A DNA stretch of 64,000 nucleotides, from the NCBI RefSeq assembly GCF_001677475.2, contig NZ_CP015229.1. One strand, given 5' to 3'. Made by a program: the position numbers. Positions 20,601 to 23,600 of the stretch are shown in pieces. Each line of letters begins with the position of its first letter. The stretch's first letter is position 1. The stretch comes from Escherichia coli. GTDB lineage: Bacteria > Pseudomonadota > Gammaproteobacteria > Enterobacterales > Enterobacteriaceae.

Positions 20601-23600
20601 GAGCGCAGCGAGCAGGTGATGGCGTTAGATCTCTCGCCGCCAATGCTTGCCCAGGCACGCCAGAAGGATGCCGCAGATCATTATCTGGCGGGGGATATCG
20701 AATCCCTGCCGTTAGCGACTGCGACGTTCGATCTTGCATGGAGCAATCTCGCGGTGCAGTGGTGCGGTAATTTATCCACGGCATTAGGTGAGCTTTGCCG
20801 CGTAGTACGCCCCGGCGGCGTAGTGGCGTTTACCACGCTGGCGCAGGGTTCGTTACCCGAACTGCATCAGGCGTGGCAAGCAGTAGACGAACGCCCCCAT
20901 GTCAATCGCTTTTTACCGTCAGCAGATATTGAACAGGCGCTAAAAGGTTTTCGTTATCAACATAATATGCAGCCTGTCACGCTGTGGTTTGATGATGCGC
21001 TCAGTGCCATGCGTTCGCTGAAAGGCATTGGCGCAACGCATCTTCACGCAGGGCGCGATCAGCGAGTATTAACCCGTTCACAGTTACAACAACTGCAACT
21101 GGCCTGGCCGCAACAACAGGGGCGATATCCTCTGACGTATCATCTTTTTTTGGGAGTGATTGCTCGTGAGTAAACGTTATTTTGTCACCGGAACGGATAC
21201 CGAAGTGGGGAAAACCGTCGCCAGTTGTGCACTTTTACAAGCCGCGAAGGCAGTAGGTTATCGGACGGCAGGTTATAAACCGGTCGCCTCTGGCAGCGAA
21301 AAGACCCCGGAAGGCTTACGTAATAGTGACGCGCTGGCGTTACAGCACAACAGCAGCCTGCAGCTAGATTACGCAACGGTAAATCCTTACACCTTCGCAG
21401 AACCCACCTCGCCGCACATCATCAGCGCGCAAGAGGGCAGGCCGATAGAATCATTGGTAATGAGCGCCGGATTACGCGCGCTTGAACAACAGGCTGACTG
21501 GGTGTTAGTGGAAGGTGCTGGCGGCTGGTTTACGCCGCTTTCTGACACTTTCACTTTCGCGGATTGGGTAACACAGGAACAACTGCCGGTAATACTGGTG
21601 GTTGGCGTGAAACTCGGCTGTATTAATCACGCGATGTTGACTGCGCAGGCAATACAACACGCCGGACTGACTCTGGCGGGTTGGGTGGCGAACGATGTCA
21701 CGCCTCCTGGAAAACGTCACGCTGAATATATGACCACGCTCACCCGCATGATTCCCGCGCCGCTGCTGGGAGAGATCCCCTGGCTTGCAGAAAATCCAGA
21801 AAATGCGGCAACCGGAAAGTACATAAACCTTGCCTTGTTGTAGCCATCCTGTATTTGGTTAAATTGCGAGCGAGATCGCGTCTTCGATTGACTGCAATTT
21901 AACCAATTAAATTCTAAAATAATCACGAAAAAAATTTTACTTCCGCCTCATGCGGCGAATGTGGGAATTGCCCAGGCGGCGGGGGATAGGGGCTGGAGAC
22001 AGTTATCCACTATTCCTGTGGATAACCATGTGTATTAGAGTTAGAAAACACGAGGCAAGCGAGAGAATACGCGGCTTGCACGCGAATTGGCGTTAAAGAC
22101 GGCTCAAAGAAATATCTTTTATTTTTTAACTGGTTAGATAAATGCAATGGCAGTCACTGAACAGGCATCTCTTGCCATAAAACTGTCATCACTCATCTTG
22201 ACAAATGTTAAAAAAGCCGTTGCTTTGGGGATAACCCGGTAAGGCCGGAGTTTTATCTCGCCACAGAGTAAATTTTGCTCATGATTGACAGCGGAGTTTA
22301 CGCTGTAACAGAAATATTATGGTGATGAACTGTTTTTTTATCCAGTATAATTTGTTGGCATAATTAAGTACGACGAGTAAAATTACATACCTGCCCGCCC
22401 AACTCCTTCAGGTAGCGACTCATGAGTAAACCGTTCAAACTGAATTCCGCTTTTAAACCTTCTGGCGATCAGCCAGAGGCGATTCGACGTCTCGAAGAGG
22501 GGCTGGAAGATGGCCTGGCGCACCAGACGTTACTTGGCGTGACTGGCTCCGGGAAAACCTTCACCATTGCCAATGTCATTGCTGACCTTCAGCGCCCAAC
22601 CATGGTACTTGCGCCCAACAAAACGCTGGCGGCCCAGCTGTATGGCGAAATGAAAGAGTTCTTCCCGGAAAACGCGGTGGAGTATTTCGTCTCCTACTAC
22701 GACTACTATCAGCCGGAAGCCTATGTACCGAGTTCCGACACCTTCATTGAGAAAGATGCCTCGGTTAACGAACATATTGAGCAGATGCGTTTATCCGCCA
22801 CCAAAGCGATGCTGGAGCGACGTGATGTGGTTGTAGTGGCGTCTGTTTCCGCGATTTATGGTCTGGGCGATCCTGATTTATATCTCAAGATGATGCTCCA
22901 TCTCACGGTCGGTATGATTATCGATCAGCGCGCGATTCTGCGCCGACTGGCGGAGCTGCAATACGCTCGTAATGATCAAGCATTCCAGCGTGGTACTTTC
23001 CGCGTTCGTGGCGAGGTGATAGATATCTTCCCGGCAGAATCGGATGACATTGCACTTCGCGTGGAACTGTTTGACGAGGAAGTGGAACGATTGTCGTTAT
23101 TTGACCCGCTGACCGGGCAGATTGTTTCCACTATTCCACGTTTTACCATCTACCCGAAAACGCACTACGTCACACCGCGCGAGCGCATCGTACAGGCGAT
23201 GGAGGAGATCAAAGAAGAACTGGCCGCCAGACGCAAAGTGCTGTTGGAAAACAACAAACTGCTGGAAGAGCAGCGGCTGACCCAGCGTACCCAGTTTGAT
23301 CTGGAGATGATGAACGAGCTGGGCTACTGTTCGGGGATTGAAAACTACTCGCGCTTCCTCTCCGGTCGTGGACCGGGTGAGCCACCGCCGACGCTGTTTG
23401 ATTACCTGCCTGCCGATGGGCTGCTGGTCGTCGATGAATCTCACGTCACCATTCCACAAATTGGCGGCATGTATCGCGGTGACCGGGCGCGTAAAGAGAC
23501 ACTGGTGGAGTACGGCTTCCGCCTGCCATCAGCGCTGGATAACCGTCCGCTTAAGTTTGAAGAGTTCGAAGCATTAGCGCCGCAAACCATCTATGTTTCG

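What the first reader, a model, noticed from the sequence alone, without database searches (positions are those of the whole stretch)
22003..22345. DnaA box pair and LexA box in the long bioD-uvrB intergenic region
The ~580-bp gap upstream of uvrB holds two inverted DnaA boxes (ttatccact / tgtggataa) about 300 bp upstream of a canonical LexA box that overlaps a -10-like ccagtataat. This matches the multi-promoter architecture known for uvrB and shows that the SOS and DnaA inputs are intact in this strain.
Basis: partly seen in the sequence, partly recalled or inferred. Interest (0 to 1): 0.25.

Follow-up and report, generated by a model that had tools for sequence, protein, structure and literature searches.

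The report
DARS1 plus uvrB SOS promoter
The two inverted DnaA boxes are the core of DARS1, a known E. coli element that recharges the replication initiator DnaA, and the LexA box is the known SOS operator of uvrB; all of these sites are identical to K-12, so the finding is real but ordinary.

Summary
Box I (TTATCCACT) is at 22003-22011. Box II (TGTGGATAA, a perfect TTATCCACA on the minus strand) is at 22017-22025. The LexA box CTG-N10-CAG is at 22330-22345, abutting TATAAT. All lie in the 578-bp bioD-uvrB spacer.

The spacer differs from K-12 MG1655 at two bases, neither in a box. Both motifs exceed chance: the DnaA-box arrangement scores 31.7 bits against a maximum of 21.9 in 1000 simulated windows. 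The LexA box scores 23.1 bits, the best in the window.

DARS1 releases ADP from DnaA to regenerate ATP-DnaA. It also overlaps promoter uvrBp3.

The DARS1 block is identical in 5385 of 5424 complete E. coli genomes, against about half for neighbouring stretches. The core also sits upstream of uvrB in Citrobacter, Photorhabdus, Pasteurellaceae and Vibrio, whatever the upstream gene.

One modest extra: a further DnaA box (22226-22234), about 200 bp downstream of the core, is conserved across these genera. It coincides with the published ChIP-seq summit.

Verdict: already known, low interest.

The parts
21160..21843 (+). bioD, last gene of the bio operon; its 3' end is the left border of the spacer
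   Evidence: ORF list; annotated as bioD in matching E. coli genomes.
21997..22090 (.). DARS1 (core plus flanking enhancer region of about 50 bp); the limits are approximate
   Evidence: 100% identical to K-12. There is no variable site at 21997-22083 in 10 diverse E. coli genomes. The block is identical in 5385 of 5424 genomes. The literature gives DARS1 as 101 bp, core plus a ~50-bp regulatory region (PMC5742627).
22003..22011 (+). DARS1 DnaA box I, TTATCCACT (1 mismatch), oriented opposite to box II
   Evidence: PWM 10.67 bits, rank 14 of 127,984 positions. Invariant in Citrobacter and Photorhabdus.
22017..22025 (-). DARS1 DnaA box II, a perfect TTATCCACA, 5 bp from box I
   Evidence: the only perfect TTATNCACA in the window. 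PWM 14.57 bits, rank 1. Invariant in all 9 sequences of alignment A2. This is Wurihan's DnaA-box6, whose TG-to-CA mutation derepresses uvrBp3 5.9-fold.
22029..22037 (-). DARS1 DnaA box III, TAATACACA (1 mismatch), 3 bp from box II and head-to-tail with it
   Evidence: Listed with box II as the 'double DnaA box' cTAATACACAtggTTATCCACAg of the DARS1 ChIP-seq peak (PMC11317965).
22003..22110 (+). uvrBp3, the distal uvrB promoter overlapping DARS1; its hexamers were not mapped here
   Evidence: Literature only. uvrBp3 'completely overlaps' DARS1. The active reporter fragment spans -567 to -280 from the P1 start, which is about 21823-22110 (PMC6015884). The consensus promoter scan did not call it.
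22226..22234 (-). Distal DnaA box TTATCCCCA (1 mismatch), 209 bp downstream of box II; a weaker box, TTTTTAACA, lies at 22206-22214
   Evidence: PWM 11.95 bits, rank 8 in the window. TTTGGGGATAA is invariant in E. coli, Citrobacter and Photorhabdus. A same-strand box lies 192-211 bp from box II in all 7 DARS-bearing loci. The ChIP-seq summit at 813,331 equals window 22227.
22328..22347 (.). LexA (SOS) box of uvrB, AACTGTTTTTTTATCCAGTA; it contains the DnaA-like TTATCCAGT at 22338-22346 (2 mismatches)
   Evidence: PWM 23.06 bits, top of the window. Identical to the published box. Conserved in Citrobacter and Photorhabdus.
22346..22351 (+). -10 hexamer TATAAT of uvrBp2, overlapped by 2 nt of the LexA 20-mer
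   Evidence: Sequence. The LexA box lies between the -35 and -10 of uvrBp2 (PMC6015884).
22355..22383 (+). uvrBp1: TTGGCA, 17-bp spacer, TAAAAT
   Evidence: Promoter scan, 10 of 12 matches. Consistent with P1 being the proximal promoter. The start near 22390 is inferred.
22422..24443 (+). uvrB coding sequence, 673 aa
   Evidence: ORF list; annotated as uvrB in matching genomes.

Best explanation
The bioD-uvrB spacer carries two known, separable control modules.

(1) Positions 21997-22090 are DARS1. ADP-DnaA binds the consensus box II. It then recruits further protomers to box I (head-to-head) and box III (head-to-tail). The head-to-head AAA+ contact expels ADP from the protomers on boxes I and II. 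Apo-DnaA falls off and rebinds ATP, which replenishes initiation-competent ATP-DnaA. The same boxes lie on promoter uvrBp3, so DnaA bound there also represses that distal uvrB promoter.

(2) Positions 22328-22347 are the high-affinity LexA operator within uvrBp2 and just upstream of uvrBp1. It keeps uvrB low until RecA-stimulated LexA cleavage.

Shown here: the sites, their geometry, their statistical excess, their identity to K-12 and their conservation. Taken from the literature and not tested here: ADP release, DnaA and LexA footprints, and the promoter activities.
For: - Identity: only 2 SNPs against K-12 in 578 bp, and none in any box.
- Geometry: I-5 bp-II-3 bp-III with box I inverted. 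This is the same geometry as the K-12 DARS2 core, TTATTCACC-5-TGTGGATAG-3-TGTGAAGAA. It matches the published definition (PMC6868365; PMC5742627).
- Statistics: 31.7 bits against a simulated maximum of 21.9. The LexA box scores 23.06 bits, the top of the window.
- Selection within E. coli: the 87-bp DARS1 block is identical in 5385 of 5424 genomes, and the 94 bp from the LexA box to the ATG in 5215 of 5424. Two neighbouring 87-bp control stretches are identical in 2770 of 5414 and 2890 of 5391.
- Selection across genera: the core lies 315-419 bp upstream of uvrB in all 6 sampled Enterobacterales, Pasteurellales and Vibrionales. It is absent from 70+ other UvrB loci. The upstream genes differ.
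- Published experiments: DnaA ChIP-seq peak 'DARS1'; ATP-DnaA and LexA footprints and reporter mutants; DARS1 deletion lowers origins per mass and fitness.
Against: - Nothing biochemical was or could be tested here.
- The ChIP-seq signal at DARS1 is weak (16x, against 78-213x at DARS2 and datA), and its summit lies about 200 bp downstream of the core.
- DARS1 deletion phenotypes are mild. A strain lacking all extrinsic DnaA regulators is reported to be near normal (abstract of PMC11331064).
- The consensus promoter scan finds uvrBp1 but not uvrBp2 or uvrBp3.
- The extra low-affinity LexA boxes 2-4 reported by Wurihan et al. score under 2 bits in my PWM.
Confidence: 0.93

Rival explanations
1. 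One reading: the DnaA boxes are only a transcriptional operator through which DnaA represses uvrB (promoter P3), with no role in the DnaA nucleotide cycle.
For: DnaA represses uvrBp3, and mutating box II (DnaA-box6) derepresses it 5.9-fold (PMC6015884). The core stays linked to uvrB even when the upstream gene changes.
Against: The I-5-II-3-III geometry with an inverted box I is shared with DARS2, which is at a different gene. In the cited in-vitro work ADP release depends on the box I/II-bound DnaA protomers, and boxes I and II are described as essential for the DARS system. DARS1 deletion alters initiation. The operator role is real, but it is an added role and not an exclusive one.
Confidence: 0.05
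2. The inverted repeat GTTATCCAC-N7-GTGGATAAC is an RNA hairpin or intrinsic terminator, for bio read-through or P3 transcripts, and only looks like DnaA boxes.
For: The terminator-like scan lists 22002-22026 (9 pairs, then CATGTGTATT). Inverted repeat I2.
Against: From E. coli to Vibrio and Haemophilus the arms keep the same sequence (TATCCAC / GTGGATA) with no compensatory changes, while the loop varies. That pattern indicates protein recognition, not an RNA stem. Box III, outside the hairpin, is conserved too. There is no real T-run. Rfam finds nothing. DnaA footprints and ChIP are published for the site.
Confidence: 0.02
3. The boxes act as a passive DnaA titration sink (datA-like reservoir) and not as a catalytic reactivation site.
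For: It is a cluster of good DnaA boxes, and DnaA is bound there in vivo.
Against: ChIP coverage is low (16x, against 213x at datA). There are only 3-4 boxes. Deleting DARS1 lowers origins per mass, whereas deleting the datA locus raises it.
Confidence: 0.03
4. The motifs are chance matches in an AT-rich spacer.
For: Single-motif counts are at chance level.
Against: The geometry and PWM tests reject this, as do population and cross-genus conservation.
Confidence: 0.005

Closest known systems
DARS1 of E. coli K-12 (DnaA-reactivating sequence 1; Fujimitsu et al. 2009, as described in PMC6868365 and PMC5742627)
   Same: Same locus (bioD-uvrB spacer). Identical sequence over the core and flank. 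Same three boxes, orientations and 5-bp/3-bp spacers.
   Different: Nothing detectable. The two SNPs against K-12 lie outside DARS1, and at both of them K-12 carries the minority allele.
DARS2 of E. coli (rppH-mutH spacer)
   Same: Same core geometry, I-5-II-3-III, with box I inverted.
   Different: In DARS2, box II has one mismatch. DARS2 also needs a regulatory region of about 400 bp with IHF and Fis sites. DARS1 works alone and has only a flank of about 50 bp. I did not look for IHF or Fis sites here.
uvrB SOS box / uvrBp1-p2-p3 promoter cluster (Sancar 1982, van den Berg 1985 and Wurihan 2018, as cited in PMC6015884)
   Same: Identical LexA box, the P2 -10 and the P1 hexamers. The LexA box is 74 bp before the ATG, compared with 73 bp in Salmonella.
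   Different: One SNP (22308, A here and T in K-12) lies 20 bp upstream of the box. The A allele is the common one in E. coli.
'Double DnaA boxes' bound in vivo (PMC11317965)
   Same: Boxes III and II form a head-to-tail pair with a 3-bp spacer, the arrangement that paper finds predictive of in-vivo binding.
   Different: DARS adds the inverted box I. That inverted box is what distinguishes a reactivating site from a simple operator.

Membership tests
DARS (DnaA-reactivating sequence) | Cluster of three 9-mer DnaA boxes, with box I oriented opposite to boxes II and III | tested here: met
   22003-22011 (+), 22017-22025 (-), 22029-22037 (-); 1, 0 and 1 mismatches to TTWTNCACA.
DARS (DnaA-reactivating sequence) | Fixed spacing shared by DARS1 and DARS2 (5 bp between I and II, 3 bp between II and III) | tested here: met
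   The window has 5-bp and 3-bp spacers. The K-12 DARS2 core at L003 5136-5170 has the same spacing. The 5-bp spacer is stated in PMC6868365.
DARS (DnaA-reactivating sequence) | DARS1 specifically: location in the bioD-uvrB spacer and sequence identity with the characterised K-12 element, including the ~50-bp flank | tested here: met
   100% identity across 21849-22307. Synteny bioBFCD-uvrB.
DARS (DnaA-reactivating sequence) | Promotes ADP dissociation from ADP-DnaA and regenerates ATP-DnaA | not testable with these tools
   Published for the identical K-12 sequence; no computation can test it.
DARS (DnaA-reactivating sequence) | DnaA occupancy in vivo | not testable with these tools
   Published ChIP-seq peak 'DARS1', 16x, with its summit at 813,331 (window 22227), about 200 bp from the core.
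LexA (SOS) box, gamma-proteobacterial type | CTG-N10-CAG palindrome with an AT-rich spacer and a PWM score in the range of proven sites | tested here: met
   CTGTTTTTTTATCCAG has 9 of 10 A/T in the spacer. It scores 23.06 bits against a training range of 13.1-27.4, the top of the 64-kb window. The training sites were recalled from published compilations. One of them (dinG) was independently found verbatim in the window.
LexA (SOS) box, gamma-proteobacterial type | Overlaps core promoter elements of the regulated gene | tested here: met
   The 20-mer ends 2 nt inside TATAAT (22346-22351) and lies 8 bp upstream of the P1 -35. The literature places it between the -35 and -10 of uvrBp2.
LexA (SOS) box, gamma-proteobacterial type | LexA binding and damage inducibility | not testable with these tools
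   Published: footprint at the lowest LexA concentration, and a published LexA-box1 TG-to-GC reporter mutant reported to have a strong effect on uvrBp1-2 activity. The Salmonella orthologue is induced 14-fold.
Intrinsic terminator (considered for 22002-22026) | GC-rich stem followed by a U-run, with the stem kept by covariation | tested here: not met
   Only 4 GC pairs and the tail CATGTGTATT. The arms are invariant in sequence across orders, with no compensatory changes.

The most novel reading that the evidence does not exclude
DARS1 is not merely parked next to uvrB. It may be part of a conserved three-part module: the DARS core, a same-strand distal DnaA box about 190-210 bp downstream, and the uvrB promoters. 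This module is kept across Enterobacterales, Pasteurellales and Vibrionales, regardless of the upstream gene and of whether a LexA box is present. The distal box (22226-22234) is where the published ChIP-seq summit actually sits. That would imply a mechanistic coupling that has not been dissected, for example DnaA looping or oligomer bridging between the core and the distal box, or P3 read-through controlling DnaA reactivation. The presence of DARS-like sequences near uvrB in V. cholerae was already noted by Fujimitsu et al., and the box is among Wurihan's 'potential' boxes. Only the conserved spacing and the coincidence with the summit would be new.
Probability: 0.2. Interest if true: 0.4.

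Novelty: already known. Interest (0 to 1): 0.1.

Why it matters
It matters mainly as annotation. This 578-bp 'empty' spacer holds one of the four chromosomal elements that set the ATP/ADP state of the replication initiator, and a textbook SOS operator. In this strain both are identical to the studied K-12 versions, so K-12 results transfer directly. A reader who calls it only a 'DnaA input to uvrB' misses the replication-control role. The population data (over 99% of 5424 genomes identical across DARS1, against about 50% for neighbouring DNA) are a clear illustration of purifying selection on a non-coding element. The conserved distal DnaA box is a small lead for those working on DARS1.

Tried and rejected
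- Rfam at a permissive E-value over 21700-22500 gave only a meaningless miRNA hit (E = 0.73), so no RNA family is present.
- The terminator reading of the box I/II hairpin was rejected because the arms show no covariation across genera.
- The terminator-like CCGGTAAGGCCGG+AGTTTTATCT at 22236-22248 has stem-breaking SNPs in O157:H7 (22245, 22247). I did not pursue it.
- The short ORFs across DARS1 (21950-22096 on +, 22010-22147 on -) are not annotated in K-12. Indels in strain ecoli019 (L091) disrupt the 21950-22096 (+) ORF. I rejected them as genes.
- Wurihan's weak LexA boxes 2-4 are not supported by my PWM (all under 2 bits). Their footprints are at high LexA concentrations, so I left them out of the parts list.
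- The original uvrB promoter paper (van den Berg 1985, PMC341119) is not held, so the uvrBp3 hexamers and start site could not be placed exactly.
It returned a broad but thin sample, with only 2 other Enterobacterales, so conservation within the family rests on few genomes.

Full report
**What is there.** The window is E. coli chromosome. The stretch 21800-22460 is present at 95-100% identity in 5423 of 5426 complete genomes, always annotated bioD | uvrB. bioD ends at 21843 and uvrB (673 aa) starts at 22422, leaving a 578-bp spacer.
- TTATCCACT at 22003-22011;
- TGTGGATAA at 22017-22025 (a perfect TTATCCACA on the minus strand), 5 bp further on;
- CTGTTTTTTTATCCAG at 22330-22345 (20-mer AACTGTTTTTTTATCCAGTA, 22328-22347);
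- TATAAT at 22346-22351.

Aligned with K-12 MG1655 (window x = NC_000913.3 x - 791,104), the spacer has two substitutions, at 21848 and 22308. Neither is in a box. At both, K-12 carries the minority allele among ten diverse E. coli genomes.

**More than chance?** Single motifs are not: one perfect TTATNCACA against 1.9 expected, and eight CTGT-N9-CAG against 5.4 expected. The arrangements are.
- An inverted box pair with a 5-bp spacer and at most one mismatch appears in 0.2% of 1000 simulated 64-kb windows.
- I built a DnaA PWM from the 24 non-DARS1 boxes listed in the ChIP-seq paper PMC11317965. It ranks box II first and box I 14th of 127,984 positions. The summed score over the geometry I-5-II-3-III is 31.7 bits, against a maximum of 21.9 in 1000 simulations.
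- A LexA PWM built from 18 other SOS boxes gives the uvrB site 23.06 bits. The boxes were recalled from published compilations, and one of them, dinG, turned up verbatim in the window. The score is the best in the window, and 0.3% of simulated windows reach it.

**What it is.** There is a third, TGTGTATTA (TAATACACA on the minus strand), at 22029-22037, 3 bp after box II. Three boxes with box I inverted, a 5-bp spacer and a 3-bp spacer are the published definition of a DARS core (PMC6868365; PMC5742627). The element in the bioD-uvrB spacer is DARS1.

I checked the geometry against the other family member. The K-12 DARS2 core in the rppH-mutH spacer reads TTATTCACC-5-TGTGGATAG-3-TGTGAAGAA, the same layout.

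According to those papers, ADP-DnaA binds box II and recruits protomers to box I (head-to-head) and box III (head-to-tail). ADP is released from the protomers on boxes I and II in a Gln208-dependent way. Apo-DnaA then leaves and binds ATP. A flank of about 50 bp enhances activity, and DiaA stimulates it.

The same DNA carries promoter uvrBp3. DnaA bound to box II (Wurihan's DnaA-box6) represses it. The LexA box lies between the -35 and -10 of uvrBp2 and is footprinted at the lowest LexA concentration (PMC6015884). uvrBp1 (TTGGCA-17-TAAAAT, 22355-22383) is found by the consensus scan; uvrBp2 and uvrBp3 are not.

**Conservation within E. coli.** Ten diverse E. coli sequences show 48 variable columns in the spacer. 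None falls between 21997 and 22083, and none between 22328 and the ATG. Across all complete genomes:

| Stretch | Length | Identical genomes |
|---|---|---|
| DARS1 block, 21997-22083 | 87 bp | 5385 of 5424 |
| LexA box to ATG, 22328-22421 | 94 bp | 5215 of 5424 |
| Control, 21910-21996 | 87 bp | 2770 of 5414 |
| Control, 22100-22186 | 87 bp | 2890 of 5391 |

**Conservation across genera.** An unbiased sample of 80 UvrB loci from the species-level genome collection shows the I-5-II-3-III core on the uvrB strand in Citrobacter, Photorhabdus, Rodentibacter, Haemophilus and two Vibrio species. In these it has at most 1 mismatch in boxes I+II and lies 315-419 bp upstream of uvrB. That is all six sampled Enterobacterales, Pasteurellales and Vibrionales.
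- Shewanella has an inverted copy.
- None of the other 70+ loci comes closer than 3 mismatches.
- In the alignment the box sequences themselves are invariant while the loop and flanks diverge. This argues for protein recognition and against the hairpin or terminator reading suggested by the scan.
- The upstream gene differs: bioD; a membrane protein; rnfA or a flavodoxin-like gene on the other strand. The LexA box is absent in the Pasteurellaceae. The core therefore travels with uvrB, not with bioD or with SOS control.

DARS-like sequences near uvrB in V. cholerae were already noted by Fujimitsu et al. (cited in PMC6090056), so this is confirmation, not discovery.

**A small extra.** A fourth DnaA box, TTATCCCCA on the minus strand at 22226-22234 (rank 8 in the window), lies 209 bp downstream of box II.
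- It sits in the only other block, besides DARS1 and the LexA/P2 region, that is invariant between E. coli, Citrobacter and Photorhabdus (TTTGGGGATAA).
- A same-strand box occurs 192-211 bp from box II in all seven DARS-bearing loci. It is the best non-core box in four of them and in the top 1-7% in the rest. The distance window was chosen post hoc.
- The published DnaA ChIP-seq summit assigned to DARS1 is 813,331, which is window 22227 and lies on this box. The DARS2 summits lie within about 10-50 bp of their boxes.
- It is presumably one of Wurihan's 'potential' DnaA boxes 2-4.

I regard this as a lead, not a finding.

**Verdict.** The finding is already known, and every functional site in the spacer is identical to the K-12 reference. 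Nothing biochemical could be tested here, so the mechanism rests on the cited papers for the identical sequence.

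Noticed in passing
window 22226-22234 (and 22206-22214): A distal DnaA box, TTATCCCCA on the minus strand, lies 209 bp downstream of DARS1 box II. It is invariant in E. coli, Citrobacter and Photorhabdus. A same-strand box at 192-211 bp is present in every DARS-bearing uvrB locus examined. The published DnaA ChIP-seq summit (813,331) falls on it, not on the DARS1 core.
   Followed up: partly
window 44235-44254: The second-best LexA PWM hit in the window (17.4 bits), TATTGGCTGTTTATACAGTA, lies in the 5' region of dinG. The matching stretch is annotated dinG in E. coli genomes, so this is the known dinG SOS box.
   Followed up: partly
window 21852-21909: A 16-nt inverted repeat (TATTTGGTTAAATTGC / GCAATTTAACCAATTA, 26 nt apart) lies immediately after the bioD stop. 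The RNA fold is -27.5 kcal/mol (z = -2.5), with no T-run. It may be the bio operon terminator or a protein site. It has no Rfam family.
   Followed up: partly
L084 (E. coli ZH063, NZ_CP014522.1), insertion after the equivalent of window ~22189: This strain has a prophage (terminase genes next to the junction) integrated inside the bioD-uvrB spacer. The insertion separates DARS1/uvrBp3 from uvrBp1-p2 and uvrB.
   Followed up: no
L003 5452-5486 (K-12, mutH-proximal side of the rppH-mutH spacer): A second DARS-like cluster, TTATCCCAG-5-TGTGGATAA-3-GGTGTAAGA, resembles DARS1 (CAGTTATCC...CTGTGGATAAC) more than the DARS2 core does. It corresponds to the third 'DARS2' ChIP-seq peak (2,969,501) and overlaps the small gene ygdT.
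   Followed up: partly
window 21848 and 22308: At the only two spacer differences from K-12 MG1655, K-12 carries the minority allele in a 10-genome sample, and the window carries the common one. Position 22308 lies 20 bp upstream of the LexA box.
   Followed up: yes
window 21800-22460 (search result): Two of the 5429 matching places for this chromosomal stretch are on records labelled as plasmids, and two or three complete genomes lack it. Neither was examined.
   Followed up: no
L038 (CAMDRJ010000105.1): A MAG labelled Klebsiella pneumoniae has a UvrB N-terminus only 74% identical to E. coli and no DARS core or LexA box upstream. The label is probably wrong.
   Followed up: no
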